From the NCBI GenBank assembly GCA_021778115.1, contig JAJYCS010000003.1, positions 13,156-77,155 of the forward strand: a stretch of DNA of 64,000 nt, read 5' to 3'. The position numbers and the translations under genes are program-made. Every line of letters starts with the position of its first letter. Within the stretch, counting starts at the first letter, position 1. Source of the DNA: Deltaproteobacteria bacterium (GTDB lineage: Bacteria; Desulfobacterota; Desulfuromonadia; Geobacterales; Pseudopelobacteraceae). The notes under the pieces were generated by a model, which did no database searches, was not told where the DNA came from, and was given only the letters and a program-made list of their open reading frames with translations. Positions 1,544 through 18,565 of the stretch are shown one piece after another.

Positions 1544-2076
1544 TAGCCCCCCTGGAGAACAGAAACCGCTCCCTGCTGCTCCGGCTGACCGCACTGCTCC
1601 TGTGCGTGGCCCTGCTGGGGACGGCCCTGGCCCTGCTGCTGCGCAAGGAACAGGCACAACGCCGCCTTGCGGCACTCCACGGCAGGATACTGACCAACCT
1701 GCCGCTGATGGCGGCCGAGACCGCGAACCTCCAGCGGGAGGTGACCGCCTTCCGCCAGGGGCTCCCGGGAACGCTGGACCGGCGTTCCCCCGATCTGCTG
1801 CTCTATACCCGTCTGGACCAGATCAAAGCCCTGCTGCAGCCCAGCGAGATGACCATTACCGGGGTCGAAACCGGGAATGGTCGTAAGACCATCTCCTTTA
1901 ATCTGAAGGTACCCGCAGCCCGCTACAGCGCACTGGTAAACGGGATGGGGCAGCTGCAGACCGAGCTGTTCCCCTTTGTCGAGTTCCGCGAGATCACCCT
2001 GAACCCCACCGCCACGGACAGCAGCATCGCCCTCTCCGGCCGTGTGCTGCTCCCCACCGTGGGGGGCGGAGCGTAA
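1540..2076 (+). CDS. PilO/GspM/MshJ-like inner membrane protein
   Basis: 178 aa, N-terminal TM then coiled coil; 4-nt overlap with the upstream gene. Confidence 0.6.
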   Translation: MIAPLENRNRSLLLRLTALLLCVALLGTALALLLRKEQAQRRLAALHGRILTNLPLMAAETANLQREVTAFRQGLPGTLDRRSPDLLLYTRLDQIKALLQPSEMTITGVETGNGRKTISFNLKVPAARYSALVNGMGQLQTELFPFVEFREITLNPTATDSSIALSGRVLLPTVGGGA

Positions 2077-2078
2077 CG

Positions 2079-2519
2079 ATGGGGCGTCAGCAGACCACCA
2101 TCCTGTTGGCCATCGGGGCCCTGACGGCGCTCCTCCTCCCCCTGCTGGTCTACCGGCAATTCCACGCCGCGCCCCGCCTGCAGGCAACGGAACAGACTGT
2201 GGCTGCCTTCACCCCGACCTCCCTGCTGATCCCCCGCCGGGGTTGGCAGACCGTCACCCTCGCCCCGCCGGTGGGACTCCCGGCGCCGGCCGTGCCGCAA
2301 CCGGCCCCCTCGGCCAAGGCCGGCCTCCCCCTGCCGGTGGCCACGCCTCCTCCGACGGTCTCCTTTATCCTCCACGACGCCGGCAAGGATCTGGCCATCG
2401 TCAACGGGGTCATGGTAAAGGTGGGGGACCGCTACCAGGAGTGGCAGGTAACGCGGATAGAACGCAATCGGGTACTTTTACACGGAAGAAAGGGGCCGTT
2501 ATGGATCGCCCTGCAGTAA
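2079..2519 (+). CDS. MshK/GspB-like single-pass protein
   Basis: 146 aa; TM, Pro-rich linker, C-terminal AIVNGVMVKVGDRYQEWQVTRIE beta motif; lies directly before the secretin. Confidence 0.5.
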   Translation: MGRQQTTILLAIGALTALLLPLLVYRQFHAAPRLQATEQTVAAFTPTSLLIPRRGWQTVTLAPPVGLPAPAVPQPAPSAKAGLPLPVATPPPTVSFILHDAGKDLAIVNGVMVKVGDRYQEWQVTRIERNRVLLHGRKGPLWIALQ

Positions 2520-4228
2520 GGATACACCTCGCCACCGGCAAACGCTGCGCCCTGTTCCTCGTGGCGCTCTCCCTGGTCGCCGGCTGCGCAAACCAGCCGC
2601 CGCTGGCCCCCCGTGACGCCTCCAGCCAGCCCCTGGCCCCCCCCGTGACGAGCCGGGAACCGTTCGTCAAGGAGAACCTGCAGGAGATGCAGCGCCGCTC
2701 CACCCCGCCCCCCCCCCTCACCACCCCGGCCTACCAGCCGGTCAGTGACGACGTCTCCCCGGCCCACACCCGCCTGGTGAGCATCCAGGCCCGTAATACC
2801 GCCCTGGGTGACGTCCTGCAGGTGATCGCCGATGCCGCGGGACTGAACCTGATCATCGGCGACGGGGTCCGGCAGGAACGGCCGATCACCATTACCCTTA
2901 AACGGGTCACCGCCGACGACGCCCTGGCCACCATCCTCACCTCTGCCGATTACTTCTACACGATCAAGAACAACATCCTCTCGGTGCAGGCCACCGGCAC
3001 CAAGGTCTTCGAGCTGGGACACCCGGCCCTGGTGCAGGGGTACCAGGTGGATGTGGGGGGTGATATCCTGGGGAGCGCCGCCGGCCTCACCGCAGCCGGC
3101 TCCGGCAATACCGGCAACGCCACCACCAGCTCCGGCTCATCCGGCAACACCGGCTCCGCCAATATCAAGGGGAGCATCAACCAATCGGTCAGAAACGACG
3201 GCAAGGCCTTCGACTTCTGGGAATCGCTGGAGAAATCGCTCCGCGCGCTCCTCCTCGCCCCTCAGGATTCCGCCCCAGCTGCCGGCGCTGCAGCCGCCGG
3301 CCCCCAGCCGCCACGCAGCGAGGAGCGGGGGGTCAGGCAAAACGTGGTGATCAACCGCCTCACCGGCACCATCGTGGTCACCGCCACCCGGCGCAACCTG
3401 TCAACGATCGAGGAGTATCTGGACCGGCTCAAGGCCGCCTTGAACCGTCAGGTGCTGGTTGAGGCGCGGGTCATCGAGGTGCAGCTCAATGCGGGGATCA
3501 AATACGGGATCGACTGGTCCTTCCTCTCCAACATCAACAACTACGGCCAGCTGGGCGGAGGATTCGGCGCCGTCGCCTCAAGCGCCGACTTCAGCGGCTC
3601 CTTAAACAGCGCCGCCCCCAACTTCCGGATCGGCACCATCACCAGCGGCTCCAAGGGGGAGATCAAGGCGCTCCTCACCGCCCTCAAGACCCAGGGGGAC
3701 GTGAAGACCCTCTCCAACCCCCGCATCAACGTCATGAACGGTCAGACCGCCCTCCTGACCGTGGGGAGGAACACCAACTTCGTCTCCAAGGTCACCTCCA
3801 CCATCAGCAACGCCGGCACCGCCAACACCATCACCTACACCGTGGACACCAGCAACGTCCTCTCCGGCATCATGATCGGCATCGCCCCCACCATCAACAG
3901 CAAGGGGGAGATCAGCATGGCCATCACCCCGATCATCTCCGATCTGGTAAGCCTCACCCCCACCAACATCGGCTCCGGCAGCAACCAGACCACCATCCAG
4001 ATCCCGGTGGTAGACCTGCGGGAGCTCTCCACCACGGTGAAGGTCCATAACGGCGAGATGATCGTCATCGGCGGTCTGATCGCCAACAAACGGGACCAGG
4101 AGGATGAGAAGATCCCGTTCATCGGGGAGCTACCCTGGCTGGGGGCCCTGTTCTCCCGCAAAAACTACCAGGACACCCGGACAGAGCTGGTGGTGGTGCT
4201 GCAGCCCTATCTGGTGGGGAACGACTAG
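2501..4228 (+). CDS. mshL: Lipidated secretin (MshL/GspD family)
   Basis: Start re-called at ATG 2501 (MDRPAVR); lipobox LVAGC; STN-like domain; secretin motifs KTLSNPRINVMNGQTA and EKIPFIGELPWLGALF. Confidence 0.88.
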   Translation: MDRPAVRIHLATGKRCALFLVALSLVAGCANQPPLAPRDASSQPLAPPVTSREPFVKENLQEMQRRSTPPPPLTTPAYQPVSDDVSPAHTRLVSIQARNTALGDVLQVIADAAGLNLIIGDGVRQERPITITLKRVTADDALATILTSADYFYTIKNNILSVQATGTKVFELGHPALVQGYQVDVGGDILGSAAGLTAAGSGNTGNATTSSGSSGNTGSANIKGSINQSVRNDGKAFDFWESLEKSLRALLLAPQDSAPAAGAAAAGPQPPRSEERGVRQNVVINRLTGTIVVTATRRNLSTIEEYLDRLKAALNRQVLVEARVIEVQLNAGIKYGIDWSFLSNINNYGQLGGGFGAVASSADFSGSLNSAAPNFRIGTITSGSKGEIKALLTALKTQGDVKTLSNPRINVMNGQTALLTVGRNTNFVSKVTSTISNAGTANTITYTVDTSNVLSGIMIGIAPTINSKGEISMAITPIISDLVSLTPTNIGSGSNQTTIQIPVVDLRELSTTVKVHNGEMIVIGGLIANKRDQEDEKIPFIGELPWLGALFSRKNYQDTRTELVVVLQPYLVGND

Positions 4229-4236
4229 GAGACGCC

Positions 4237-5892
4237 ATGGCGGCACCGATCAAGATAGGCGAACTCCTCAGGAACAACGGACTGATCAGCGACAAGCAGC
4301 TCCGGATCGCCCTGGAGCAGCAGAAGGTGACCGGCGCCATCCTGGGTGACCTGCTGATCCGCCTCGGCTTTGTCACCGCCGCCGAGTTCGCCCGGACCAT
4401 CGCCCTGCAGTCGGGGATCGACTTCATCGACCTGGCCGAGATCCAGCCGGAGGAGGAGGCCCTGCGCCAGGTGCCGAAAGACACGGCCGAAAAGGCCGGC
4501 TTCATCCCCCTGGCCGTGGTTGAGGACGGCCGTCTGGCCATCGGCATCACCAACCCCAGCAACATCGTGGCGGTGGATACGGTGACCAAGCTGACCGGCA
4601 GACAGCCCAGGGTCTTTCTGGTGGACAGCGACTACTACCAGGAGACCCTGGAAAAGGCCTACTTCTTCATCGCCCACCCGGTGCAGCAGCGGATGGAGCG
4701 GCTGATCGGCGTCATCCGGCAGACCGCCGGGGCGATCCCCGGCGCCACCATCGCCGAGCTGATCGAACTGATCATGGTGGACGGGGTACGCAAACAGGCC
4801 ACCGACATCCATATCACCCCGGCCGATGACGTAACCAACGTCTTCTACCGGATCGACGGCGTCCTGCAGCACGGCCACTGCCTGCAGAAACAGGTCCACG
4901 GCGGTCTGGTCTCACGAATCAAGGTCCTCTCCCAGCTGGATATCGCCGAGCAGCGCCTCCCCCAGGACGGCTCCTTCAGCTACGAGTTCCTCTCCAAACG
5001 GTTCGACATCCGGGTCTCCACCGTCCCCACCATCTTCGGGGAGAACCTGGTACTGCGCCTGCTGGCCGGCGCCGGCCCCCTGCTGCGCCTCGAGGCCCTG
5101 GGGATGAGTCCGGATACCACCCGGCAGATCCGCCGTCTCTTCCAGAAGTCCTACGGCATCATCCTGATCGCCGGTCCCACCGGCAGCGGCAAGACCACCA
5201 CCCTCTACGCCGGCCTGCGGGAACTGGACCGCCTGGAGCGGAACATCATCACCGTGGAAGACCCGGTGGAATACCGCCTGAGCTTTATCCGGCAGAGCCA
5301 GGTCAACGAGCGGGCCGGCTTCGACTTCGCCCTGGCCGCCCGCAACTTCATGCGTCAGGACCCGGACGTGATGCTGCTGGGGGAGATCCGGGACGAAGAG
5401 ACCGCCCAGATCGCGGTCCGGGCCGCCATCACCGGCCACCTGGTGTTGTCCACCATCCACACCAACGACGCCGTCACCGCCATCCCCCGCCTGCTCGACC
5501 TGAAGCTGGACGCCTTCCTCCTCTCCTCCGCCCTCACCGCGGTACTGGCCCAGCGGCTGCTCCGCAAGATCTGCCCCCACTGCCGCCAGGAATACCTGCT
5601 CACCGAGGAGGAACAGGAGCTCTTCAGACAGCACGGCTTCGAGCTGACCCACGGTAACCGGGGGATCGGCTGCAGCAAGTGCAACGATTCAGGCTACCTG
5701 GGCCGTCTCTCCATCTGCGAGGTCCTGGTGATCGACGACGAGATCCGGCAGATGATCTTTGACGGCTCCTCCACCGCCGCCATCGCCGAGGCGGCCCGCA
5801 AGCGGGGGATGCGGCCGCTTCTGGAGGACGGCATCCTGAAAGCCGCCGAAGGGCTCACCACGATGGCTGAAGTCATGCGGGTCGCCGGATGA
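4237..5892 (+). CDS. mshE: Pilus assembly ATPase (GspE/PilB/MshE)
   Basis: Walker A GPTGSGKT, MRQDPDVMLLGEIRD, GHLVLSTIHTND, CxxC pair; N-terminal MshEN-like repeats. Confidence 0.93.
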   Translation: MAAPIKIGELLRNNGLISDKQLRIALEQQKVTGAILGDLLIRLGFVTAAEFARTIALQSGIDFIDLAEIQPEEEALRQVPKDTAEKAGFIPLAVVEDGRLAIGITNPSNIVAVDTVTKLTGRQPRVFLVDSDYYQETLEKAYFFIAHPVQQRMERLIGVIRQTAGAIPGATIAELIELIMVDGVRKQATDIHITPADDVTNVFYRIDGVLQHGHCLQKQVHGGLVSRIKVLSQLDIAEQRLPQDGSFSYEFLSKRFDIRVSTVPTIFGENLVLRLLAGAGPLLRLEALGMSPDTTRQIRRLFQKSYGIILIAGPTGSGKTTTLYAGLRELDRLERNIITVEDPVEYRLSFIRQSQVNERAGFDFALAARNFMRQDPDVMLLGEIRDEETAQIAVRAAITGHLVLSTIHTNDAVTAIPRLLDLKLDAFLLSSALTAVLAQRLLRKICPHCRQEYLLTEEEQELFRQHGFELTHGNRGIGCSKCNDSGYLGRLSICEVLVIDDEIRQMIFDGSSTAAIAEAARKRGMRPLLEDGILKAAEGLTTMAEVMRVAG

Positions 5893-7109
5893 CCCCCTTC
5901 CTTTACCGCGCCGTGGATGCCGCCGGCAAACAGGTAAGCGGCCAGATCGAAGCCGATTCGGCCGAGGCCGCCGGGGACGAACTGGCGGGCCGCGGCTACT
6001 ACCTCCTGAGCATCTCCCCCGGCACCGGACTCCTCTCCAGGGTGAAGAAGCAGCTGCAGAAGCAGCGGGTCCGCCGGATTGAGATCATCGAGCTGGCCAG
6101 CAACCTCTCGGTGATGGTGGGGGCCGGGATCCCGATCACCATGGCCCTGGGGGATATCATCGCCTCGGTGACCAACAGCACCCTGCAGACCACCCTGGCC
6201 GCCGTCAAACAGGAGATCGAACAGGGCTCCACCTTCTCCGACGCCATCGAACGGTACAGCACCCTGTTCCCCGACATCTTCATCCGCCTGGTGCGGGTGG
6301 GGGAAGAGACGGGCCGTTTCGAGAAGAGCCTCGCCGATGTGGCCGAGCACCTGCAGCGGATGGAAGACCTGGCATCGGCCATCAAGCGGGCCCTCATCTA
6401 CCCCGCCTTTGCCATCGTCAGCACCTTCGGCGCCCTGATCTTCTGGCTGGTCTACGTGCTCCCCAAGATCATCGGCACCCTGAAGGGGATGGGGGTCAAA
6501 CTGCCCCTCCTGACCCGCCTGCTGATGGGGGCCAGTGACCTGACCCAGCGGTTCTGGTATCTGGCCCCGATCATCCTGGTGCTGATCCTGGTGCTGCTCA
6601 AGCTGCTGAAACGACACGAGCCGAGCCGCTACCAGCTGGACCGCCTGAAACTCAAGCTGCCGATCTACAGCCTGGTGGAGTACAACCGCCTGCTGGCCCT
6701 GCTGACGGAACAGCTGCGGATCCTGATCGTTGCCGGCCTCACCTTCGACCGCACCCTGGGGATCATCGCCCAGGTGATACGGAACCGGGTCTTCCAACGG
6801 GCCCTGGAGACGGTGCGTGAGGAGATCACCTACGGCAGCGGCATCGCCGAGGCCCTGCGCAAGCACCCGGTCTTTCCCCTGCTCCTGGTCCGCCTGGTGG
6901 CGATCGGCGAGACCAGCGGCTCACTGGACAGCCAGTTCGAGTTCCTGGCCACCCACTACCTGAAAAAACTGGACGACATCTCGGAGAAACTGGGCAAGAT
7001 CATCGAGCCGTTGGTGATCGGCTTCATCGGCATCATGTTCGCCCTCATCATCATGGGGCTCCTCTTCCCGGTCTACGACCTGATCTCCGCCGTTGGAAAG
7101 GGGCGCTGA
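5889..7109 (+). CDS. mshG: Inner membrane platform protein (GspF/PilC/MshG)
   Basis: 406 aa; two GspF repeats with GEETGRF / GETSGSL motifs and three TMs. Confidence 0.92.
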   Translation: MTPFLYRAVDAAGKQVSGQIEADSAEAAGDELAGRGYYLLSISPGTGLLSRVKKQLQKQRVRRIEIIELASNLSVMVGAGIPITMALGDIIASVTNSTLQTTLAAVKQEIEQGSTFSDAIERYSTLFPDIFIRLVRVGEETGRFEKSLADVAEHLQRMEDLASAIKRALIYPAFAIVSTFGALIFWLVYVLPKIIGTLKGMGVKLPLLTRLLMGASDLTQRFWYLAPIILVLILVLLKLLKRHEPSRYQLDRLKLKLPIYSLVEYNRLLALLTEQLRILIVAGLTFDRTLGIIAQVIRNRVFQRALETVREEITYGSGIAEALRKHPVFPLLLVRLVAIGETSGSLDSQFEFLATHYLKKLDDISEKLGKIIEPLVIGFIGIMFALIIMGLLFPVYDLISAVGKGR

Positions 7110-8033
7110 ATGGGCAGTTCATACCTCGACTTTTACTCCCTGACGGAAGACCCGTTCCGTCTCACCCCTGATCCGGCCTACTACTACCCCTCCAGCGGCC
7201 ATGCCAACGCCCTGCTCTCCCTCGATTACCTGATGAACAACCGGGAGGGGTTCTGCCTCCTCACCGGTGAGCCGGGGACCGGCAAGACCACCCTGCTGCG
7301 GATCTTCATCAACAAGTGGCAGGAGCGGGCCGAGATCGCCCTGATCATGACCCCCCGTCTCCGGCCGGAGGAGTTCCTCCAGGCACTGCTTGAGGACTTC
7401 GCCGTCATCTATCCCCTGTCGGGCAACAAAAACGATATGATCAAGGAGTTCCGCGACTTTCTGCTGAATCATGCCGGTCAGGGGCGACCGGTGGTGATCG
7501 TGGTGGACGAGGCCCAGCAGCTGCCGGACGACACCCTGGAGGAGCTCCGGCTGCTGTCAAACCTGGAGACGGAGAAGGAAAAACTGCTGCAGATCATCTT
7601 GGTGGGGCAGCCGGAACTGGCCGCAAAGCTGGCCCACGAGCGGTTCCGCCAGCTGGACCAGCGGATCTCGGTGCGGGCGGGGCTCACCCACCTCACCGCC
7701 CAGGCCACCGCCGATTACCTGGCCACCCGGCTCCATCGGGCCGGGGCCCGGGTGGCAACCCTGTTCGAGCCTGCCGCCAGTGAGGCGATCTACCGCAGCT
7801 CCGGCGGGGTGCCGCGGCTCATCAACCTGATCGCCTCCCGCAGCCTGATGGTGGGATTTCTGGAGGGCAAACCGATCGTGCAGGCCCGTCAGGTGGAACT
7901 GGCAGCGGCCGAGGTGGTGCGGAGGGAGGCCCGGCAGCAGCGGAGGCAAGCGGCGGCGCGCTGGTGGTGGGTGGCGGCGGCAGGGGGGGCGCTGCTGCTG
8001 GCGCTGGCGGCGCTGGCGGCAGGACGGTGGTGA
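7110..8033 (+). CDS. ExeA/MshM-family AAA ATPase
   Basis: DPFRLTPDP, Walker A GEPGTGKT, VVDEAQ, QIILVGQPEL, SGGVPRLIN; C-terminal TM. Confidence 0.9.
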   Translation: MGSSYLDFYSLTEDPFRLTPDPAYYYPSSGHANALLSLDYLMNNREGFCLLTGEPGTGKTTLLRIFINKWQERAEIALIMTPRLRPEEFLQALLEDFAVIYPLSGNKNDMIKEFRDFLLNHAGQGRPVVIVVDEAQQLPDDTLEELRLLSNLETEKEKLLQIILVGQPELAAKLAHERFRQLDQRISVRAGLTHLTAQATADYLATRLHRAGARVATLFEPAASEAIYRSSGGVPRLINLIASRSLMVGFLEGKPIVQARQVELAAAEVVRREARQQRRQAAARWWWVAAAGGALLLALAALAAGRW

Positions 8034-8036
8034 CGC

Positions 8037-9062
8037 CTACTCCTGCTCCAGGGCCCTGATCCGCCCCCGGGCCTCATCCCGGGCCTGCTGACCGACATCC
8101 GGCAGGGCCAGCAGATCGCGGTATACCCGCAACGCCTTGTCCCGCGCCCCCTGGCGCTCATACAGCCGCCCCTGCCCCAGATATCCACGGGGGTCCCCCC
8201 CCTCGGCAAGGCGGCGGTAACTGCCGGCGGCGTCATCCAGGGCGCTGGCCCGCTCCTGGGCCAGGGCCAGGTTATAGAGGGCGCTCCGGTTGGCCGGGTC
8301 CAACGCCGCAGCCCGGCTGAAACTCTTCACCGCCGCCCCCCCCTGTCCCAGGTTCCCCTGGGCAACCCCCCGGTTCACCAGGGCCGAGACATACTCCGGC
8401 TTCAGGGTCAGGGCCCGCTCGGTCAGGGTCAGGGCCTGCCGGTACATCCCCAGCCGCAGCTCCATATCGGCGGCGTTGTTCATGATCCGGTAGTTGTACG
8501 GATCGGCCTCCAAGGCCTGCTGATACTGGGTGAGGGCGGTCAGGTAATCCCGCCGGGCCTCGGCGTTGCGGGCCGCGAAGAGGTGGGCATCAATGGCGGT
8601 ACGATCCTTCGGGGCCGGCGTATGGGACGGAGGGGCGGCTGACGATGCAGGGGCGGTCCGGCCGGCCGGACGGGAATGGCGAACAGGCGCCGCAACGGCA
8701 CGGGCCGGGCGGACCGGGGGATGGGTGGGAGGCTGCGGGGGGCGCTCCACCACCTGCCGCACTGCCGGGGCCGACGGCGCGACGGGCCGCTGCGCCGGGA
8801 GCGGCGGCGCTGCAACCGCCTGCCGGGCAGGGGGTGGTGGCGCTGACAACGGCTGCCGGTGGAGGGGACGGCTGTCCAGATACCACCCCAGCCCCCCCCC
8901 CACACAGACGGCCGCTGCGGCAATGCCGCCGATGAGCAGCAGACGGCGCCCCCTGGAGGCGGAGCCACCGGCGCTTCCCACCGCCTGCAGCACCCCCGGC
9001 GGGATCTCCGCCGGCGCCTGGTTGGTCTCGGTCTTTTTCAGCAGATTGGCGAGGATGCTCAT
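8037..9062 (-). CDS. TPR protein (MshN-like)
   Basis: Start re-called at ATG 9062 (MSILANLLKK); TM, Pro/Ala-rich linker, several TPRs. Confidence 0.75.
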   Translation of the reverse strand: MSILANLLKKTETNQAPAEIPPGVLQAVGSAGGSASRGRRLLLIGGIAAAAVCVGGGLGWYLDSRPLHRQPLSAPPPPARQAVAAPPLPAQRPVAPSAPAVRQVVERPPQPPTHPPVRPARAVAAPVRHSRPAGRTAPASSAAPPSHTPAPKDRTAIDAHLFAARNAEARRDYLTALTQYQQALEADPYNYRIMNNAADMELRLGMYRQALTLTERALTLKPEYVSALVNRGVAQGNLGQGGAAVKSFSRAAALDPANRSALYNLALAQERASALDDAAGSYRRLAEGGDPRGYLGQGRLYERQGARDKALRVYRDLLALPDVGQQARDEARGRIRALEQE

Positions 9063-9319
9063 GGAGGCCCTTACGCGGAGATACCATTCTCTGCTATGGC
9101 GAATAGCAGGCCCAACCGGGGCTGTCAACAGATTTTGCCGCCATTAACCGGGGTTTATCTGCCTGTTTTGCAGGCAACGGTAAAAAATAAGGGGCTACGG
9201 CCGTTTTTCCCCTTGATTTTTCCCCCCATCTCACCGAAAGTTATCCAAAGTAACCCGTCATCATCCGGCACGAAACGCCGTGTCATCCTACACTGCACAG
9301 AGAGAGACAGGAGGAGCAG

Positions 9320-9856
9320 ATGCACAACAGCAACAGAGGTTTCACCCTGGTGGAGATGGCCATCGTGCTGGTCATCATCGGTATCATCCTGGGGGCGGTC
9401 ATCAAGGGACAGGACCTGATCCAGGGGGCCCAGGCCAAAGCGGTGCTGCAGATCCCGGCCAAGTGGGAGGTGCCGATCTGGGGCTTCTACGACAAGATGG
9501 GCTACCTGCCGGGTGACAGCGGCCGGTCCGGTAACATCCAGAGCTTTGCCCAGCTGCAGTCCGACCTGCAGAACAACAGCTTCACCCTGCCGGCATCCAC
9601 CATCAGCGGGGTCAACAACACTGTGGAATCATTAACAACTGTTTGTGGCCAAACCATAACCCGCAACGTCATGCTGCTGACCAACGTCCCCCTGGCCACG
9701 GCCAAGGCGCTGGACGCCAACATCGACGGCACCGAGGACGGTAAAACCGGACGAGTGAGGTACTGTGGCACAGGTACTACTGGCGCCACTGCAGCAAATG
9801 TTTGGCCGACCACCGATCCGGTGGATGTGGTCTACTTCTTCGACAAGCTGCCGTAA
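9320..9856 (+). CDS. Type IV major pilin candidate (MshA-like)
   Basis: Class III signal RG|FTLVEMAIVLVIIGII with E5; strong RBS; own terminator downstream. Confidence 0.85.
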   Translation: MHNSNRGFTLVEMAIVLVIIGIILGAVIKGQDLIQGAQAKAVLQIPAKWEVPIWGFYDKMGYLPGDSGRSGNIQSFAQLQSDLQNNSFTLPASTISGVNNTVESLTTVCGQTITRNVMLLTNVPLATAKALDANIDGTEDGKTGRVRYCGTGTTGATAANVWPTTDPVDVVYFFDKLP

Positions 9857-11693: not shown

Positions 11694-12677
11694 ATGAAAG
11701 CTGCCAAAGGGTTTACCCTGGTTGAACTGGCCATCTCCCTGGTGGTGATCGGGCTATTGATCGGCCTCGGGGTCACCCTGGTGGGCCCCCTGGCAACCGC
11801 CACCAAGGTGCGGGAGAGCAAGGAGAACCTTGACGGGGCCGTTGAGTCCCTGAACAGCTGGGCAGCGGGGAACAACTCACTCCCAAATGGGGCAGGGTTC
11901 CCCGCAGTGGTGAAGAGCCCCCAGGATGCGTGGGGGCACAATTTCGTCTATCTGTATGACGCCACCCTCTTCAGCGCAACCCCCAGTAACGACACCCTCT
12001 GCGGCCGCAAGACCACCTCCCTGACCCTCCAGACCACCAACCCCCCGGCCACCATCGCCAATGTGGCCTATGTCATGCTGAGCCCCGGTGACGACAGCAC
12101 CATACAGACCACCCTCGCCACCACGGCGACGGTGCCGGCCATCCCCCCCACCCTGAACGGGACCCCCGTGACCTCGGGGAGCGCCATCCCCCTGAACACC
12201 CTCGCCTCGGCAACCGGTACCGTTGTCCTTGACACGAACAACAGCGACATCGTCCGTTGGGTGACCCTGGATGAACTGCGCACCAAGGTGGGGTGTGAAG
12301 GGGCGCAGATGCGGATCGTGAATAACGAGCTCCCCTATGGCTACGTGAGCAGCAAATACGTGGCCAAGCTGCTGCTAAACGGCGGGGTCACCGATTACAA
12401 ATGGTGCGTAAGCGGCCTCCCCCCGGGGCTTGTGGCCGTTGCCCTGCCCGGTGGCGCCACCATGGGGAGCTGCACGGTCCCCGCGAACTGCGCCGGCCTC
12501 ACCTCAGACAGCAACTGGGTGACGGCAACCCCGCCGGTCTTCCTCAACATCTCCGGCATCCCCACCGCCCAGGGGAGCTACCAGATCAACCTGATGGCCC
12601 ACGACAGCCAGGGGAGCTCACTATCCCAGAACAACTGCAGCAGCAAGACCTTCGCCCTCACCATCAACCCGCAATAG
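11694..12677 (+). CDS. Minor pilin with C-terminal putative Ig (He_PIG-like) domain
   Basis: KG|FTLVELAISLVVIG class III signal; DAWG motif; NNELP...GG...YKW...GLPPGL Ig-like segment. Confidence 0.8.
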   Translation: MKAAKGFTLVELAISLVVIGLLIGLGVTLVGPLATATKVRESKENLDGAVESLNSWAAGNNSLPNGAGFPAVVKSPQDAWGHNFVYLYDATLFSATPSNDTLCGRKTTSLTLQTTNPPATIANVAYVMLSPGDDSTIQTTLATTATVPAIPPTLNGTPVTSGSAIPLNTLASATGTVVLDTNNSDIVRWVTLDELRTKVGCEGAQMRIVNNELPYGYVSSKYVAKLLLNGGVTDYKWCVSGLPPGLVAVALPGGATMGSCTVPANCAGLTSDSNWVTATPPVFLNISGIPTAQGSYQINLMAHDSQGSSLSQNNCSSKTFALTINPQ

Positions 12678-12799: not shown

Positions 12800-13036
12800 A
12801 TGCAAACGCTACGCGCCACAGACGCAAACCGTCAATTATCCAGTGTATTAAGACAGGTATCCAAGGGCGAAGAATTTCTTGTTATTTCAAGAGGTAAGCC
12901 GGTAGCGACCATCCTCCCGGTTAAACAGGCTGATACCTCTCATCGAGCTTCACGCGAGTTGCTGCTTAAACGTCTGTCCAGCCAGGAAGTAACCGGAACC
13001 CGCTCATGGACGCGCGATGAGCTGTACAGATCATGA
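12800..13036 (+). CDS. Phd/YefM-family antitoxin
   Basis: 78 aa; ANRQLSSVLRQV..GEEFLVISRGKPVATI; 4-nt overlap with a PIN toxin. Confidence 0.88.
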   Translation: MQTLRATDANRQLSSVLRQVSKGEEFLVISRGKPVATILPVKQADTSHRASRELLLKRLSSQEVTGTRSWTRDELYRS

Positions 13037-13476
13037 GGATTGCCATTGACACCAATGTGCTTGCGTACGCAGAAGGGATCGGTGATAGCGCACGGCGGGA
13101 CACCAGCCTTTTACTGCTGGAGCGTTTGTCGGCAGACGACGTGATACTCCCGGCACAGGTAATGGGAGAACTGTTCCGTGTGTTGACCGGCAAGGGGAAC
13201 TGTACACCTGATATGGCCCGTGCCCGTGTGATGCAGTGGAGCGATAGCTTTGAGGTAGCCAATTCTACGTGGTCAGCCTTTCAGTCCGGTTTTGATTTGA
13301 CGGTTGACCACAACCTCCAGATATGGGATGCGCTGATTCTATCGGTTGCTGCTGAAAGTCGCTGCCGGATTCTGTTTTCTGAAGATATGCAGCATGGTTT
13401 TACCTGTCGCGGAGTAACGGTGGTAAACCCCTATAGCGATCCAATCCACCCGCTGCTTTTGCCACTGATGCGCTGA
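13033..13476 (+). CDS. vapC: PIN-domain (VapC-like) toxin
   Basis: IAIDTNVL, QVMGEL, IWDALI, LFSEDM acidic PIN residues intact. Confidence 0.9.
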   Translation: MRIAIDTNVLAYAEGIGDSARRDTSLLLLERLSADDVILPAQVMGELFRVLTGKGNCTPDMARARVMQWSDSFEVANSTWSAFQSGFDLTVDHNLQIWDALILSVAAESRCRILFSEDMQHGFTCRGVTVVNPYSDPIHPLLLPLMR

Positions 13477-13595
13477 AAAGAAAAAACAAGACCTCCTTTG
13501 CATCATCTAACCTGATGATATACAAGCGTGATCTGCTTTCTGAAGAGATGGTTAGGTAGTCGCCGCCATAGATCGCTTGTTACGGTGAATCCTCC

Positions 13596-13625
13596 TTGAC
13601 GCAACAGACGCAATGCGCATAACAT
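13596..13625 (+). promoter_or_regulatory. Putative sigma70 promoter of the second TA pair
   Basis: TTGACG (13596) -18 bp- TAACAT (13620); palindrome ATGCGCAT next to the -10; GGAGG RBS downstream. Confidence 0.5.
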
Positions 13626-13643
13626 ACACACAGGAGGCGTACC

Positions 13644-13898
13644 ATGTATAAATCACGACTTAACCTTACCGTTGACAGCGATCTGCTGGATTTTATCAAG
13701 GAGTATGCGGAAACCCAACGGACAACGGTTTCTGAGCTTTTTACCCAGTTTGCCCTGCGTTTAAAACGATCAAAAGAAAATGACCCAACCGAGACCATTC
13801 TGGCTGACCCTGATTTCACCGCCTCACTTATGGAGAGTATGGAGCGGGTACGAAGCGGCAGTATGGGTTGGAAAAGCTATGATGAGGTATTCAAGTGA
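13644..13898 (+). CDS. Ribbon-helix-helix antitoxin-like protein
   Basis: 84 aa; KSRLNLTVDSDLLDFIKEYA RHH-like start; C-terminal WKSYDEVF typical of RelB-type partners; overlaps the next gene by 4 nt. Confidence 0.65.
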   Translation: MYKSRLNLTVDSDLLDFIKEYAETQRTTVSELFTQFALRLKRSKENDPTETILADPDFTASLMESMERVRSGSMGWKSYDEVFK

Positions 13899-14206
13899 CG
13901 TTGCTTTTCAGTGATGACTTTATCACCTCATTGCATAAGCACGCAGCCATCAAGGAATCGGTGCGCAAAAAAGTGGATATGATCGCCGCCAACCCTGTTG
14001 CCTTGGGCGAACCGCTGCAAGGAAACTTCAGGGGTTATTACAGTTGTCCGGTCAAACGGAACTTTCTGATTATCTTTCTGTACTGCCGTTCGTGCAGAAA
14101 GCGCGGAAATGATGGCTTTGTAAGCTGTAGCGACTGCAGCACCCGCACTGACGAAACTATCAAGCTTGTCAGTCTTGGACCGCACGACAAGGCATATTGG
14201 GGATAG
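13895..14206 (+). CDS. RelE/YafQ-like toxin with a CxxC...CxxC insertion
   Basis: GTG start; GEPLQGNFRGYYSCPV..NFLIIF and C-terminal LGPHDKAY are RelE-like. Confidence 0.6.
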   Translation: MTLLFSDDFITSLHKHAAIKESVRKKVDMIAANPVALGEPLQGNFRGYYSCPVKRNFLIIFLYCRSCRKRGNDGFVSCSDCSTRTDETIKLVSLGPHDKAYWG

Positions 14207-14209
14207 GCC

Positions 14210-17080
14210 ATGCAACCTTGCTGTCAACGCGCCATACGCTGTTTTTCCCGTTCCCGCGCCGGCATGGCACTTTTGAACGTCATCCTGCTCCTGATCCTGA
14301 TCGGCGCCCTGGTGATCGCCGGCTACAAGATGGTAGGGCCCCTGGTGCAGCGGGGGAAGATCGACGACACCAAGACGATCATCAAGAGCGATGTGGATGC
14401 GATCATCAGTTGGAGTGTGGCCCGCTGCAGGATACCCGATACCGGCAGCTCAGCCACCCCCCCCACCGATTTTAATCACGTGGTGCAGAACCCCAATGAT
14501 GCCTGGGGGGGGCAGCTCTCCTATCTGTACGCCCCCGAGCTTGCCGGTAACACCTCCTGCGCCCAGATCTGCGGCCTGTCCACAACCCGTTTCTTCGTGA
14601 GCGGCGTCAGCGATTCAGTGGCGTTTGTCATCGCAAGCTCCCAATACTCCCCTGCCTTCCACAACCAGCTGCCGGTCGGCACCACCTTAAACGGTACGAC
14701 CCTCACCGCCACCACCCCGGTCAACGCCGCCGGCGGCAGTGTCGTCGGTACCCTCACGCAGCAGTTCACCGACCCGCCCGATATCCTGCGGGTGGTCACC
14801 CTGAACGAACTGAAGGCCCGCATCGGCTGCTCCGGGTACACCTGGGGGCAGCTACGGATACTCAACAATGAGCTGCCCAGCGTCTATACCGACAGCTATG
14901 CGGCATACGCCGGGACCTTGTTTGCCGAAGGAGGGGCCCCTGCCTACACCTGGCAGACGGCACCTGCCGTCACCCCCTCCAGCGGCCTGAGCATCGCCGT
15001 CAACCCTACCAGCGGGGCCATCACGATCACCGCCCCCCCCACCGCCGGGACCTACACCGTCACCATCACGGTTACCGATCAAAACGGCGCCACCGCCCAA
15101 CGGACCTACACCCTGAAGGTCTTGACCCACGGCTCCGGGAACCCGCCCGGTGGTGGTGGCAGCGGCGGCATCAACAACGATAACGGCGACGCCAGCACCG
15201 GCACCGTGGTCGGCACCGGGTTCGGTTCCAACTACGGGCGGATCGCCTTCGGCTACAACCAGGGCAATACCGGCGGCTGTTTCTGGTATCCCTACACCTT
15301 CCCCCTGCAGGGAAAGACCCTGCGCGCCTACTGGAACTTCTGCTATTCCAGCGTTGAAGACTATGCAAACAGCACCCACTACGGCGACGGTTATACCTTC
15401 ACCCTGATGCAGGGGAGCAACCCCACCAGCTACTGCGGCACCGGTACCGTCTGGGACCAGCAGATCAACCCTTTCTACGACTGCAGCACACCGGGGCATC
15501 TGGGTGAGTTTCTGAGCTACTGCGGCCTGCCGGGGCAGAGCAGCGCCTTTGAATTCGACATCTACCCCAACGGCTACCGTAACGACCCGGTCAGCAACTA
15601 CAACCATCTGGCCGTGGTGGGGGCCACTACCAGCCACACGATCGCCGCCTATCCGAACAGTCTGTACGGCGACAACACCCACGGCGTCGGCGGCAATCCC
15701 CCCTGTGACGGCCGGGACCCGGGCTGCCTGTTCGGCACCATGTACGGTCACAACTACCCGGTCAACTGGCTGGAGGAGAACAACACAGGCTGTCCGGTCC
15801 CCGACACCAACAGCGCCGATTACAGCACCCATAACGCCCGGGTGGAGATCCATACCCGCTGCAACAGCGACTGCAGCCAGTGCGACAGCAACAGCTGCAT
15901 GACCAATCCCTACACCCTGATCAAGGTCTGGATCGACCGGAGCTGGCTGGGGAGTTGCACCGGCACCTGCAACGGAACCGCCATTAACGGCGCGAAGTGC
16001 ACCGGTTCCTGCACCGGCACCTGCGATGGGAGCAGCATCACCAATGCCCAGTGCATCGCCCTCCCCTGGCGTGGACGCTGCACCGGCAGCTGTGACGGCG
16101 TCTCGGTGACCAACGCCACCTGCGCCGGTCTCTGCACCGGCACCTGCAACGGAACCGCCATCACCAACGGCACCTGTCTGGACAGGTCGTGGTATCTCCC
16201 CTGCACCGGCACCTGCGACGGGGTCCCGATCACCAATGCGGCGTGCCGTATCGGATCGACACCCGGCACCGGCAAATGCGACGGCACCTGCAACGGCGCC
16301 CCCATCAGCAATGCCGTCTGCAACAAGGCGATCTACATCAACCTGGGGGCCAATGAAGCCCTGGCCCCGGACATCACCCACTGCGTGCAGCTTCCGGGGC
16401 CGCTGAACCAGTACAAGGTGGGCTTCACCGAGGCAACCGGCGGCAGCACCCAGTACGGCTTTATCAGCAACTTCATGCTCAAGTCCTACGGCAACTGCCC
16501 CCAGGCCACCATTGCGCCCGCCACCCTGCCGGTGGGGACGGTGGGCAGCACCTACGCGGCCACCATGACCGCCAGCGGCGGCACCCCGCCCTATAGCAAC
16601 TGGCGCTGGAGCTCTTCCGCCATCCCCGGCATCGCGACAAGCGCCCTGCCACCGGGATTGACCATCAGCAACGCCGGGGTCATCAGCGGCAGACCAACCA
16701 CCAGCGGCCGCTACAACACCGTCCTTATATCGGTTGACGACGCCTGCACCGCGGACAACTGCACCAACACCGTGGCCGGAAGCTATACCCTGGATGTAGG
16801 CTGCAGCCGCTACCAGGTTGATAACGTCACCGGCAGCCGGTACGACTTCCGCGGCCCGACGGGTAACTGCGTCCGGGTTTGGGACGGCTCCACCATCACC
16901 AACAGCCTGGGCCCCGGCCAGACGATCAGCCGTTACAGCAGCACCAACGGGAGATGCACCGGTACGCCGCTGGGTACCATCGGCTACGCCGACGCGGTGA
17001 ACGCCGACCTGGGGGGGGCGCAGAACTATAACGACTGTACCGTAGGATATGGCCTGCCCGACGGGGCGGTGGACCAGTAG
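14210..17080 (+). CDS. Large pilin-anchored adhesin: pilin N-terminus, Ig-like domains, L-type lectin domain, Cys-rich repeats (MshQ-analogous)
   Basis: AG|MALLNVILLLILIG class III-like leader without E5; lectin motifs GDGYTF, AFEFDIY.N, NHL, LP...VGFTEATGG; He_PIG-like LPVG...Y...ASGGTPPY..W...LPPGLTI. Confidence 0.75.
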   Translation: MQPCCQRAIRCFSRSRAGMALLNVILLLILIGALVIAGYKMVGPLVQRGKIDDTKTIIKSDVDAIISWSVARCRIPDTGSSATPPTDFNHVVQNPNDAWGGQLSYLYAPELAGNTSCAQICGLSTTRFFVSGVSDSVAFVIASSQYSPAFHNQLPVGTTLNGTTLTATTPVNAAGGSVVGTLTQQFTDPPDILRVVTLNELKARIGCSGYTWGQLRILNNELPSVYTDSYAAYAGTLFAEGGAPAYTWQTAPAVTPSSGLSIAVNPTSGAITITAPPTAGTYTVTITVTDQNGATAQRTYTLKVLTHGSGNPPGGGGSGGINNDNGDASTGTVVGTGFGSNYGRIAFGYNQGNTGGCFWYPYTFPLQGKTLRAYWNFCYSSVEDYANSTHYGDGYTFTLMQGSNPTSYCGTGTVWDQQINPFYDCSTPGHLGEFLSYCGLPGQSSAFEFDIYPNGYRNDPVSNYNHLAVVGATTSHTIAAYPNSLYGDNTHGVGGNPPCDGRDPGCLFGTMYGHNYPVNWLEENNTGCPVPDTNSADYSTHNARVEIHTRCNSDCSQCDSNSCMTNPYTLIKVWIDRSWLGSCTGTCNGTAINGAKCTGSCTGTCDGSSITNAQCIALPWRGRCTGSCDGVSVTNATCAGLCTGTCNGTAITNGTCLDRSWYLPCTGTCDGVPITNAACRIGSTPGTGKCDGTCNGAPISNAVCNKAIYINLGANEALAPDITHCVQLPGPLNQYKVGFTEATGGSTQYGFISNFMLKSYGNCPQATIAPATLPVGTVGSTYAATMTASGGTPPYSNWRWSSSAIPGIATSALPPGLTISNAGVISGRPTTSGRYNTVLISVDDACTADNCTNTVAGSYTLDVGCSRYQVDNVTGSRYDFRGPTGNCVRVWDGSTITNSLGPGQTISRYSSTNGRCTGTPLGTIGYADAVNADLGGAQNYNDCTVGYGLPDGAVDQ
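15956..16323 (+). repeat. Intragenic array of six 15-aa Cys-rich units (CxGxC[ND]GxxIxNxxC)
   Basis: Six units, 18 Cys; exact 29-bp DNA repeat TGCACCGGCACCTGCAACGGAACCGCCAT at 15956 and 16133. Confidence 0.85.
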
Positions 17081-17386: not shown

Positions 17387-18565
17387 CTACCCTTCCTGCT
17401 TACGCATCTCCTCAATCTCGGTGTGATTCTCCAGATAATCGGCCAGCCGTAAGAAATCAGTGCGGGGATGGTTTTTGCCCCGCTGTTCGGAAAAGGCCAG
17501 TTGCGGTTTGGTGCCGTCAATCAGGTGGAAACCCCAGTATTGCAGGGTGGTACTGAAGCGGATCACCGCGTCGTCGGGATGGATAAAGCGGCACAACGGG
17601 TCGGTCTGGATGTAGGCACTTAAATGGCGCGCCAGGTGCTGCAGCAGCTTTTCGTTCTTCCTAGCCAGGGCCTCGGAGGGATCAAAGACGTTGATCAGGG
17701 CGAACAGCTCGGCGGTGCCGTTTATCTGCCTGATGTGACGGAAGGTGCGGGTGATCACATCGGCGTTCTTGGCGATCCCCAACGGGGTGAGGGTGGTGGG
17801 GACGATGCAGTAGTCAAACCGTTCCACCAGGCTGCGGGGATTCTGCTCCAGCACCGGTGAGCAGTCGCAGATCACGATCTGCTGATCGCGATACTGGGAC
17901 GGTTCCCACTCATCGTGGTTTAAGACGGTGATGGTGGCGCCGGGACGCCCCTTGGTCTGGGACGGCACGTAGAGCGACGGCGCCTCGTCATCGGGCCCCT
18001 GCATGAACAGTTTGCGCAGGTTTTTCTCCGGGTCCAGGTCAAGCAGCACCACGTCATACCCCATCAGGGCAAAGGCTCCGGCGAGGTGGGCGGCAATGGT
18101 GGTCTTCCCCACCCCTCCCTTGCAGGTAAAGATGCCGAAGTACTTCTGGCGGGCCGATCGCGGTGCGGATGCCTGTTCCCCACCAGGCTGTTCAAGGGGT
18201 GGATAGGTGCGCTGCAACTTGGTGTCGATGTGGGTCCAGAGGGTAAGACGCTTCGATTGCAACGCCTCCAGATGGGTGATGGCAGGACGGCTGAAACCGC
18301 TGGTAGATACCAGCCAGCCGCCGGCAAACCGGTCCCCACCGGGGGCATCCAGCAGGTCCAGAAACTTCTCCACCTGGGCCACATTGCACTTGGCCTTGTG
18401 GTTTTTCAGCAAGACCGCAAACCGTTTACCCTCCCGTTCGATCTCAAAGCTGTGGCCCCGGTTGCCCTCCGGGGGGAGATGTACGGTGAATCCGTAACGG
18501 GTCAGCATACGGGAAACCAGTTCGGCGTACTGCTCGGGATCGGCGGGAATAACGATGTCTGCCAT
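17387..18565 (-). CDS. Mrr-like restriction-endonuclease-fold domain fused to a ParA/MinD ATPase
   Basis: N-terminus resembles Mrr_cat (ELVSRML..YGF...LVSTSGFS); C-terminus has KGGVGKTT, LDLDP, ICDCSP. Confidence 0.75.
   Translation of the reverse strand: MADIVIPADPEQYAELVSRMLTRYGFTVHLPPEGNRGHSFEIEREGKRFAVLLKNHKAKCNVAQVEKFLDLLDAPGGDRFAGGWLVSTSGFSRPAITHLEALQSKRLTLWTHIDTKLQRTYPPLEQPGGEQASAPRSARQKYFGIFTCKGGVGKTTIAAHLAGAFALMGYDVVLLDLDPEKNLRKLFMQGPDDEAPSLYVPSQTKGRPGATITVLNHDEWEPSQYRDQQIVICDCSPVLEQNPRSLVERFDYCIVPTTLTPLGIAKNADVITRTFRHIRQINGTAELFALINVFDPSEALARKNEKLLQHLARHLSAYIQTDPLCRFIHPDDAVIRFSTTLQYWGFHLIDGTKPQLAFSEQRGKNHPRTDFLRLADYLENHTEIEEMRKQEG

What the first reader, a model, noticed from the sequence alone, without database searches (positions are those of the whole stretch)
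14210..17080. Pilus-tip lectin with a six-unit Cys-rich array inserted inside the lectin fold
Legume-lectin motifs (GDGYTF, AFEFDIYxN, NH, ...IKVWID) resume after the insert as LP...VGFTEATGG. About 125 aa of CxGxC[ND]GxxIxNxxC repeats (18 Cys) therefore sit in a loop of the beta-sandwich. An exact 29-bp DNA repeat points to recent duplication and possible copy-number variation. The array could be a disulfide-knotted protrusion or a metal/mineral-binding element. I do not recognise the repeat as a named family.
Basis: partly seen in the sequence, partly recalled or inferred. Interest (0 to 1): 0.7.

Follow-up and report, generated by a model that had tools for sequence, protein, structure and literature searches.

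The report
Pilus lectin with cysteine-hairpin loop insert
This gene encodes a large pilus subunit carrying a legume-type sugar-binding domain, one loop of which holds an old, well-conserved array of six cysteine-rich hairpins of no named family; relatives carry similar arrays in other loops or none.

Summary
ORF 14210-17080 (+) encodes 956 aa. It consists of a prepilin-like leader and pilin module, an Ig-like domain, an L-type (legume-like) lectin domain, a He_PIG Ig domain and an unnamed C-terminal domain.

Six C-x-G-x-C-[ND]-G-x-x-[IV]-x-[NG]-x-x-C units (18 Cys, residues 583-704) sit between the IKVWID and KVGFTEATG strands. Orthologues without the array have 31 residues there instead of 160. 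The AF2 model matches only legume lectins across both flanks. One family member passes Pfam's Lectin_legB cut-off. The ConA-type metal motif E-D-Y-N-D-H is intact.

The gene closes an MSHA-like type IV pilus locus, and its pilin module has Asn where Glu5 normally sits. It is therefore best read as a tip-type modular pilin adhesin, like Streptococcus sanguinis PilC.

"Recent duplication" is not supported. Two orthologues keep all six units and all 18 Cys despite saturated synonymous divergence, and the array has the lowest dN in the gene. Across the family, Cys arrays occupy four different loops, always add an even number of Cys, and were gained or lost repeatedly.

The repeat matches no Pfam, NCBIfam or PDB entry. 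Whether it forms disulfides or binds metal is unresolved: the genome shows no DsbA, DsbB or VKOR.

The parts
14210..14263 (+). Prepilin-type leader (MQPCCQRAIRCFSRSRAG), ending in Gly-1. The database gene call starts at M19 (14264).
   Evidence: The leader motif [RK]-x-G|M-A-L-L-N is conserved in homologues. It aligns on the G|FTLVE of the neighbouring prepilin.
14264..14884 (+). Pilin module (residues 19-225): hydrophobic alpha1N MALLNVILLLILIGALVIAG with Asn at +5 instead of Glu, and a conserved Cys pair (C121, C207).
   Evidence: BLASTP against the pilin at 11694-12677 gives 32% identity, E 8e-30. That neighbour carries N_methyl/TIGR02532.
14885..15124 (+). Ig-like domain 1 (residues 226-305).
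   Evidence: Weak PKD/He_PIG/Big_9 hits at 240-304, all below cut-off.
15125..15169 (+). Gly-rich linker (GSGNPPGGGGSGG).
   Evidence: Read directly from the sequence.
15170..15940 (+). L-type lectin domain, N-terminal part (residues 321-577). It includes GDG (D393), the loop-B-like GEFLSYCGL, and the metal/sugar motif E448-D450-Y452-N454-D459-H466.
   Evidence: Foldseek matches; PF18483 at E 0.0026; homologue P0030 passes PF00139; alignment to 2fmd residues 123-151; motif positions.
15956..16321 (+). Cys array: six 15-aa hairpin units (C583-C704, 18 Cys), arranged as three 6-Cys super-modules. Relative to array-less orthologues the insertion is about 129 aa (residues about 578-712).
   Evidence: AF2 predicts six beta-hairpins with [ND]-G at each turn.
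15956..15984 (+). Copy 1 of the exact 29-bp repeat (in unit 1).
16133..16161 (+). Copy 2 of the exact 29-bp repeat (in unit 4).
16346..16504 (+). L-type lectin domain, C-terminal part (residues 713-765): PDITHC strand, KVGFTEATGGSTQ (the VGFSATTG equivalent plus loop D) and the last strand.
   Evidence: Alignment to 2fmd residues 208-229 and to P0030 residues 517-560; Foldseek.
16511..16798 (+). He_PIG Ig-like domain (residues 768-863).
   Evidence: PF05345, E 7.7e-8, 33.1 bits against a cut-off of 24.
16799..17080 (+). Conserved C-terminal domain of about 90 aa with 4 Cys and no named family, plus the stop codon.
   Evidence: Conserved in most family members. No Pfam hit.
2042..9128 (.). MSHA-like pilus machinery: secretin 2042-4228 (+), MshE-type ATPase 4237-5892 (+), platform protein 5889-7109 (+), AAA_22 ATPase 7110-8033 (+), TPR protein 8037-9128 (-).
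   Evidence: Pfam hits. The same gene order is seen in L012 and L013.
9320..9856 (+). Likely major pilin (178 aa, G|FTLVE).
   Evidence: N_methyl and TIGR02532 hits.
11694..12677 (+). Second pilin (327 aa, G|FTLVE plus an Ig-like tail), a paralogue of the target's N-terminal 250 aa.

Best explanation
The gene encodes a modular minor type IV pilin of an MSHA-like pilus.

Assembly (inferred). A prepilin peptidase would cut after Gly18. The hydrophobic N-terminal helix would anchor the subunit in the filament. About 730 residues of extra modules cannot fit in the filament body, and position +5 is Asn rather than Glu, as in the capping subunits GspK and PilX. The subunit most likely sits at the pilus tip.

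Binding head. The head is a Cys-stapled L-type (legume-like) lectin domain with an intact ConA-type Ca/Mn and sugar-binding signature. It probably binds a glycan on a surface, in a matrix or on another cell.

The array. One beta-hairpin of the lectin is the turn between IKVWID and the strand that leads to KVGFTEATG and specificity loop D. In this protein that turn has been replaced by three tandem 6-Cys modules, each made of two [ND]-G beta-hairpins. I infer that these form a rigid, disulfide-bonded finger projecting from the lectin. The finger would extend or add a binding surface, or act as a spacer. It is kept by purifying selection.

Shown here: the domain anatomy, the lectin homology and fold, the insertion site, the conservation, and the family-wide gain and loss of arrays.

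Inferred: tip position, sugar binding, disulfide state, and what the array binds.
For: Locus:
- Secretin, MshE (T2SSE + MshEN), T2SSF, AAA_22, TPR protein and two canonical prepilins lie upstream.
- The order is syntenic in two orthologous contigs.
- A prepilin peptidase is present in the genome.

Pilin module:
- 32% identity, E 8e-30, to the neighbouring prepilin, with G18|M19 aligned on G|F and N23 aligned on E5.

Lectin:
- The top 50 Foldseek PDB hits are all legume lectins (2pel E 1.4e-4; 7elv TM 0.62 on the target). The alignments span about 450 query columns, so they cover both flanks.
- Homologue P0030 aligns to both flanks (E 6e-48 and 9e-8) with only 11 residues between the blocks. 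It passes the PF00139 cut-off at 32.4 bits against 26.3.
- A profile of the family aligns the EFD..NH and VGFTeaTG blocks to lectin 2fmd.
- E, D, D and H of the metal motif are invariant in the family.

Insertion:
- The loop is 31 aa with 1 Cys in 19 homologues and 160 aa with 19 Cys here.

Constraint:
- All 18 Cys and all six units are kept in L012 and L013. Array dN is 0.14-0.18, the lowest of all regions, while pS is 0.66-0.72.

Hairpins:
- Two AF2 runs both give six hairpins with [ND]-G at the turns.

Pairing:
- Every array in the family adds an even number of Cys: 2, 6, 8, 12, 14, 16 or 18.
- The mature protein has 42 Cys.
- Conserved Cys pairs also occur in the pilin and lectin cores.

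Precedent:
- S. sanguinis PilC is pilin + Ig-like + ConA-like lectin, binds glycans, and is modelled at the tip (PMC9934059).
Against: - The target itself does not pass any Pfam lectin cut-off: PF18483 scores 18.1 bits against 78.3.
- No N_methyl hit is found on its N-terminus.
- AF2 confidence is moderate for the domain (pLDDT 69.9) and low to moderate for the array (55-76 in context, 63 alone; pTM 0.38 alone).
Disulfide pairing and the position of the array relative to the sugar site could not be inspected.
- No DsbA (PF01323), DsbB or VKOR was found in a genome that is 99% complete. Only two DsbC/G-like proteins were found, so the route to disulfides is unclear.
- The Asn14-equivalent is Ser in many homologues, so sugar binding may not be universal in the family.
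- There is no experimental or expression evidence.
Confidence: 0.7

Rival explanations
1. The array is a thiol-based metal- or mineral-binding element. In an anaerobe without a DsbA/DsbB pathway the 18 Cys would stay reduced. Together with the Thr/Asn ladders they would bind Fe, Mn, Zn or sulfide/oxide mineral surfaces, so the pilus tip would attach to minerals rather than, or as well as, glycans.
For: - No DsbA, DsbB or VKOR is detected in the genome.
- Relatives are labelled Geobacteraceae, Desulfuromonadales and Nitrospirota, groups known for living on mineral surfaces (general knowledge).
- The units are Thr-rich, regular hairpins.
- No known fold or family accounts for them.
Against: - Every array adds an even number of Cys, and the counts are not multiples of 4 (6, 14, 18). 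This fits pairwise disulfides better than tetra-thiolate sites.
- There are no His or acidic ligands in the units.
- The rest of the protein, and the neighbouring pilin, also have conserved Cys pairs typical of structural disulfides.
- Two periplasmic CxxC thioredoxin-fold proteins exist.
Confidence: 0.15
2. The array is a functionally neutral or purely spacer-like expansion. Slippage of a 12-nt C-T-G-T motif would have produced it, and the loop tolerates it without the array having a ligand of its own.
For: - A 12-nt periodicity TGCACCGGCACC lies inside the array.
- There is a weak sub-threshold match to the Cxxx-repeat model TIGR04114.
- Arrays come and go in four loops: at least 6 changes at one site and at least 3 at another on the family tree.
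- Many orthologues do without an array.
Against: - The array has the lowest dN in the gene, and all units, Cys, [ND]-G turns and flanking aromatics are conserved across saturated synonymous divergence.
- Arrays at the other site are as conserved as the core or more so (0.78 against 0.68 for P0017/P0018).
Confidence: 0.1
3. The array is a rapidly varying cassette whose repeat number changes between cells or strains.
For: - An exact 29-bp repeat links units 1 and 4; P is about 0.017 under codon resampling.
- Species of the same genus differ: no array in G014 and G015, an array at another site in G009.
Against: - Six units are conserved one-to-one in three lineages.
- Units match their orthologous units best.
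- There are no silent copies elsewhere in the genome.
- No reads could be examined.
Confidence: 0.05

Closest known systems
Streptococcus sanguinis PilC, and the 'modular pilin' concept that also includes PilB (PMC9934059; PMC8179133)
   Same: Same order of modules: a type IV pilin module, then an Ig-like module, then a ConA-superfamily lectin module. PilC is a minor pilin encoded in the pilus locus, and its bulky modules point to a tip position.
   Different: - PilC's lectin resembles galectin/LamG rather than a legume lectin with a Ca/Mn site.
- PilC comes from a monoderm host.
- PilC has no Cys-rich array, no second Ig domain and no C-terminal domain.
- The target has Asn at +5 and lies in an MSHA-like diderm locus.
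Legume (L-type) lectins: ConA, peanut lectin 2pel, the M. jannaschii lectin domain 7elv, and the SraP L-lectin module (PMC4047093)
   Same: Beta-sandwich fold. The motifs xDG, EFD-x-Y-x-N-x4-DP..H and VGF[ST]xxTG are in the same order and spacing as in ConA (E8, D10, Y12, N14, D19, H24). The ConA numbering is from memory; the alignment to 2fmd is.
   Different: - About 450 aa instead of about 235.
- Twelve conserved core Cys, whereas plant lectins have essentially none (from memory).
- A family-specific excursion of about 50 aa between the NH strand and the WLE strand.
- The 129-aa Cys array.
- The target scores below the Pfam cut-offs.
GspK / PilX-type capping minor (pseudo)pilins
   Same: A class III signal-like N-terminus that lacks Glu5, combined with a bulky globular part.
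   Different: No sequence similarity to GspK was detected. The similarity is one feature plus inference.
CXXX-repeat peptides (TIGR04114) and disulfide-stapled beta-solenoid antifreeze proteins such as Tenebrio TmAFP (resemblance recalled from memory)
   Same: Short Cys- and Thr-rich repeats. C-x3-C spacing occurs at the junctions between units.
   Different: - TIGR04114 scores 17.4 bits, below its cut-off of 20, and no radical-SAM maturase context was seen.
- The period is 18-25 aa with 3 Cys, not 12 aa with 2 Cys.
- There is no PDB sequence hit and no fold hit.

Membership tests
Type IV pilin (class III signal peptide) | Short basic leader ending in Gly-1, followed by about 20 hydrophobic residues | tested here: met
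   The sequence reads ...SRSRAG|MALLNVILLLILIGALVIAG. It aligns on the G|FTLVE of the neighbouring prepilin.
Type IV pilin (class III signal peptide) | Glu at position +5 of the mature protein | tested here: not met
   Position +5 is Asn23. In homologues it is mostly N, also Q, H, Y, I or F; only the outlier P0029 has E. This is as in GspK/PilX-type capping subunits (general knowledge).
Type IV pilin (class III signal peptide) | Match to N_methyl (PF07963) or TIGR02532 | tested here: not met
   There is no hit on the target. One homologue and both neighbouring pilins do match.
Type IV pilin (class III signal peptide) | Encoded with pilus assembly genes, and a prepilin peptidase present in the genome | tested here: met
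   Secretin, T2SSE, T2SSF and pilins lie in the locus. Peptidase_A24 is on contig C94.
Legume / L-type lectin domain (PF00139, PF18483) | Profile match above the curated cut-off | tested here: not met
   In the target, PF18483 gives E 0.0026 and 18.1 bits against 78.3, and there is no PF00139 hit. Homologue P0030 (39% identity) passes PF00139 at 32.4 bits against 26.3.
Legume / L-type lectin domain (PF00139, PF18483) | Legume-lectin beta-sandwich fold | tested here: met
   The AF2 model has pTM 0.70. The top 50 Foldseek PDB hits are all legume lectins, with probability up to 1.00 and target-normalised TM 0.43-0.62.
Legume / L-type lectin domain (PF00139, PF18483) | Ca/Mn site residues E, D, Y/F, N, D, H, and the sugar-binding Asp of xDG | tested here: met
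   E448, D450, Y452, N454, D459, H466 and D393 are present. E, D, D and H are invariant in the family. This rests on sequence only.
Legume / L-type lectin domain (PF00139, PF18483) | Carbohydrate binding | not testable with these tools
   Needs a glycan array or ITC.
Modular pilins (S. sanguinis PilB/PilC type) | A pilin module with one or more functional modules grafted C-terminally, encoded in a pilus locus | tested here: met
   The concept is from PMC9934059.
MSHA-type type IV pilus system | Extension ATPase with an N-terminal MshEN domain, plus an AAA_22 (MshM-like) protein, a TPR (MshN-like) protein and a secretin | tested here: met
   PF05157 + PF00437, PF13401, TPR and PF00263 hits. Orthology to the Vibrio msh genes was not tested.
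CXXX-repeat peptide family (TIGR04114) | Profile match above cut-off | tested here: not met
   17.4 bits against a cut-off of 20, and only at the C-x3-C junctions.

The most novel reading that the evidence does not exclude
The CxGxC[ND]G hairpin units are a new, independently folding Cys-rich mini-repeat that acts as a movable loop cassette. Recombination or slippage would place it in different surface loops of one lectin scaffold, here at four sites. It would retarget a pilus-tip adhesin to new ligands, possibly mineral or metal-sulfide/oxide surfaces in Geobacter-type and Nitrospirota bacteria. This would be a natural loop-grafting system on a lectin.
Probability: 0.12. Interest if true: 0.8.

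Novelty: new variant of a known kind. Interest (0 to 1): 0.5.

Why it matters
Modular pilins that carry lectins are known from one well-studied streptococcus. This family shows the same design in environmental diderm bacteria, labelled Geobacteraceae, Desulfuromonadales and Nitrospirota. Here it sits on an MSHA-like pilus and uses a true legume-type lectin.

The unusual part is the loop arrays. A single beta-sandwich tolerates conserved Cys-hairpin arrays of 40 to 130 residues in four different loops, and these have been gained and lost repeatedly.

If the arrays prove to be binding elements, three things follow:
- They would define a new disulfide-rich repeat family.
- They would be a natural example of retargeting an adhesin by loop insertion.
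- They would give a handle on how these bacteria attach to partners, matrix or minerals.

If the arrays are only rigid spacers, the finding is a tidy addition to the catalogue of modular pilins.

Tried and rejected
- A direct PDB sequence search with the lectin region found nothing meaningful.
- A PDB sequence search with the array gave only a chance hit to cyanovirin-N at E 1.4.
- Pfam at E up to 10 found nothing for the array or for the C-terminal domain.
- NCBIfam gave only a sub-threshold hit to TIGR04114.
- A database search restricted to the array (5.8 billion proteins; candidates of 0.55-1.75 times the query length) found only the window's own protein, two orthologues and one 2-unit relative.
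- An AF2 model of the array alone was of low confidence (pLDDT 63, pTM 0.38). Foldseek then found no PDB match, so no known fold can be claimed or excluded.
- I considered a reservoir of silent cassettes and rejected it: the unit pattern occurs nowhere else in the genome.
- I considered heme binding (CXXCH) and rejected it: the units contain no His.
- I considered N-glycosylation sequons as the reason for the N-G-T motifs. They are not conserved between orthologues. The conserved feature is [ND]-G at the predicted hairpin turn.
- Literature searches for Geobacter pilin with legume lectin, and for the archaeal lectin domain, found nothing in the held library.
- Earlier scan notes describe other modular pilins with lectins and Cys-rich stalks in unrelated genomes. 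None is this family.
Full report
**1. What is there**

The ORF at 14210-17080 (+) is real and encodes 956 aa.

The six units C-x-G-x-C-[ND]-G-x-x-[IV]-x-[NG]-x-x-C lie at residues 583-704 and hold 18 Cys. At DNA level there are six 58-nt copies at 15942-16320 with start-to-start spacing 54/69/54/69/75 nt. The real building block is therefore a two-unit, six-Cys module of about 41-44 aa, each ending in an aromatic residue (..LPW..SWY..AIY), present three times.

The exact 29-bp repeat is at 15956 and 16133.

The unit is not a chance pattern. Its degenerate DNA pattern hits five times in this gene and nowhere in 400 other genomes sampled across the phylum, nor with the control pattern.

**2. Architecture and context**

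Pfam finds He_PIG at 768-863 and weak Ig/PKD signals at 240-304.

The first 250 residues are 32% identical (E 8e-30) to the neighbouring 327-aa prepilin, which has a canonical G|FTLVE and an N_methyl hit. In that alignment G18|M19 of the target falls on the cleavage site and Asn23 falls on Glu5.

Homologues conserve the leader motif [RK]-x-G|[MI]-[AT]-L-L-N. The upstream ATG at 14210 is therefore the likely start, not the M19 used by the database gene call.

Upstream of the target lie:
- a secretin;
- an MshE-type ATPase (T2SSE + MshEN);
- a T2SSF platform protein;
- an AAA_22 ATPase;
- a TPR protein;
- a 178-aa pilin.

The same gene order, ending with the lectin-pilin followed by ferrochelatase, is seen on two metagenomic contigs that carry the closest orthologues. 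A prepilin peptidase is present elsewhere in the genome.

**3. The lectin claim**

The target does not pass Pfam cut-offs: PF18483 gives E 0.0026. Four independent lines still point to a legume-type lectin.

- The family member P0030 passes PF00139 at 32.4 bits against 26.3. It aligns to the target on both sides of the array (E 6e-48 and 9e-8). Only 11 residues separate the two blocks in P0030, against 139 in the target.
- A profile of 30 family members aligns the EFD..NH block and the VGFTeaTG block to residues 123-151 and 208-229 of lectin 2fmd. ConA-type lectins dominate the weak hits.
- An AF2 model of residues 320-770 (pLDDT 69.9, pTM 0.70) gives only legume lectins as its top 50 Foldseek PDB hits. 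The alignments span about 450 query columns, so both flanks are in one sandwich.
- The motif E448-x-D450-x-Y452-x-N454-x4-D459-P-x6-H466 has the order and spacing of the ConA Ca/Mn and sugar site (ConA numbering from memory). D393 sits in xDG. E, D, D and H are invariant in the family.

**4. The array is an insertion in a hairpin**

Between the VWID and GFT anchors, 19 homologues have 30-35 residues with 1 Cys (two outliers have 3). The target and its two closest orthologues have 160-161 residues with 19 Cys. Three others have 69-77 residues with 7 Cys, which is one six-Cys module.

By register with legume lectins this is the tight turn before the strand that leads to VGFSxxTG and specificity loop D. 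Counting strands up and down suggests it points to the same end of the sandwich as the sugar site. I could not inspect coordinates, so this remains an inference.

**5. Age and constraint**

The two orthologues (68-70% identical overall) keep all six units, all 18 Cys, the [ND]-G pairs and the inter-module aromatics.

Synonymous sites are saturated (pS 0.66-0.72). Array dN is 0.14-0.18, the lowest of any region of the gene. Units match their orthologous units best.

The array is therefore old and under purifying selection, not a recent duplication.

A 29-bp identity arises in 1.7% of codon resamplings, and the orthologues reach only 15 and 20 nt. A short gene-conversion tract or chance would explain it.

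**6. The family-wide pattern**

Cys-rich arrays occur in four loops of this lectin:

| Loop | Baseline | Arrays seen |
|---|---|---|
| VWID>GFT | 31 aa, 1 Cys | +6 or +18 Cys |
| NTH>WLE | 28 aa, 2 Cys | +2, +8, +14 or +16 Cys |
| WNF>ADGYTF | 12 aa, 0 Cys | +12 Cys, a CPxC-type array |
| EFD>NTH | about 33 aa, 0 Cys | +8 Cys |

- Every addition is even.
- The NTH>WLE arrays contain the same 15-aa unit, for example CTGTCDGVSVTSSTC.
- A tree built almost without array columns needs at least 6 changes for the NTH>WLE arrays and at least 3 for the VWID>GFT arrays.
- P0018 carries an array and is sister to the array-less P0006 (core identity 0.78). Its array is 0.78 identical to that of the more distant P0017 (core identity 0.68). 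This points to loss or to recombination.
- Among 201 species genomes of relatives, only 8 have the gene and none has the site-B array. Within the genus, two have no array and one has the other-site array.

**7. Is the repeat known?**

- Pfam gives no hit at E up to 10.
- NCBIfam gives only a sub-threshold Cxxx-repeat hit.
- There is no PDB sequence hit.
- The array-only AF2 model shows six hairpins with [ND]-G at the turns but is of low confidence, and it has no Foldseek match.
- A region-restricted search of 5.8 billion proteins finds only the family.

I conclude that it is an unnamed repeat.

**8. Redox state**

For disulfides:
- The even Cys counts.
- A mature protein with 42 Cys.
- Conserved Cys pairs in the pilin and lectin cores.

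Against an easy answer:
- The genome is 99% complete and shows no DsbA, DsbB or VKOR.
- It has only two tandem DsbC/G-like CxxC proteins, each with a CXXCH motif. They lie next to a PilY1-like gene and near the prepilin peptidase.

I favour disulfides and keep a thiol/metal reading as the main rival.

**9. Comparison and verdict**

The closest characterised analogue is S. sanguinis PilC. It is a pilin + Ig-like + ConA-like lectin, binds glycans and is modelled at the tip (PMC9934059). The SraP L-lectin module is a bacterial legume-type lectin adhesin (PMC4047093).

Earlier notes of this scan show that modular pilins with lectins and Cys-rich stalks recur in other lineages. These are leads only, and none is this family.

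The gene is a new variant of a known kind. What is unusual is the conserved Cys-hairpin array placed inside lectin loops, and its repeated gain, loss and relocation.

Noticed in passing
window 12800-14206: Two small toxin-antitoxin-like pairs sit between the two pilin genes: Phd/YefM + PIN at 12800-13476, and DUF6364/RHH + a 103-aa ORF at 13644-14206. The orthologous loci L012 and L013 lack them. The second pair ends 4 nt before the target's ATG.
   Followed up: partly
window 9911-11614: A 567-aa multi-pass membrane protein with a C-terminal TPR region lies between the major pilin and the second pilin. The syntenic loci L012 and L013 lack it. It has no Pfam family beyond a weak TPR_19 hit. Its layout suggests a possible pilin-modifying (glycosyl)transferase.
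   Followed up: partly
window 17387-18565 (-): A 392-aa fusion of an Mrr_cat restriction-endonuclease-like domain with a ParA/MinD-type ATPase lies between the lectin-pilin and ferrochelatase. The orthologous loci lack it.
   Followed up: no
L014 275-1066 and 1117-1908 (own genome contig C94): Two tandem 263-aa periplasmic DsbC/G-like proteins (CPFC / CPYC) each carry an N-terminal CXXCH heme-type motif. A PilY1-like ORF follows them and the prepilin peptidase is nearby. The genome otherwise shows no DsbA, DsbB or VKOR.
   Followed up: partly
window 16799-17077: A conserved C-terminal domain of about 90 aa with four Cys (CxxYxVxNxTG..YDF..C...) ends most family members and has no Pfam match. 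Some relatives replace it: P0016 and P0019 have a beta-helix-like tail, and P0022 has VTGPG repeats.
   Followed up: no
P0027, P0028 (homologues): A different Cys array of CPxC/CxxC type (CPTCPNCTTCPWCTTC...) sits in the loop just before the sugar-binding ADG motif. P0028 has a further array after the NH strand.
   Followed up: partly
window 15998-16024 and 16117-16156: A 12-nt periodicity (TGCACCGGCACC, encoding C-T-G-T) lies inside the array. It could be the slippage seed from which such arrays grow.
   Followed up: no
L020 (genome G119, same family): The homologous 957-aa frame contains one in-frame TAG. It may be a pseudogene or a sequencing error.
   Followed up: no
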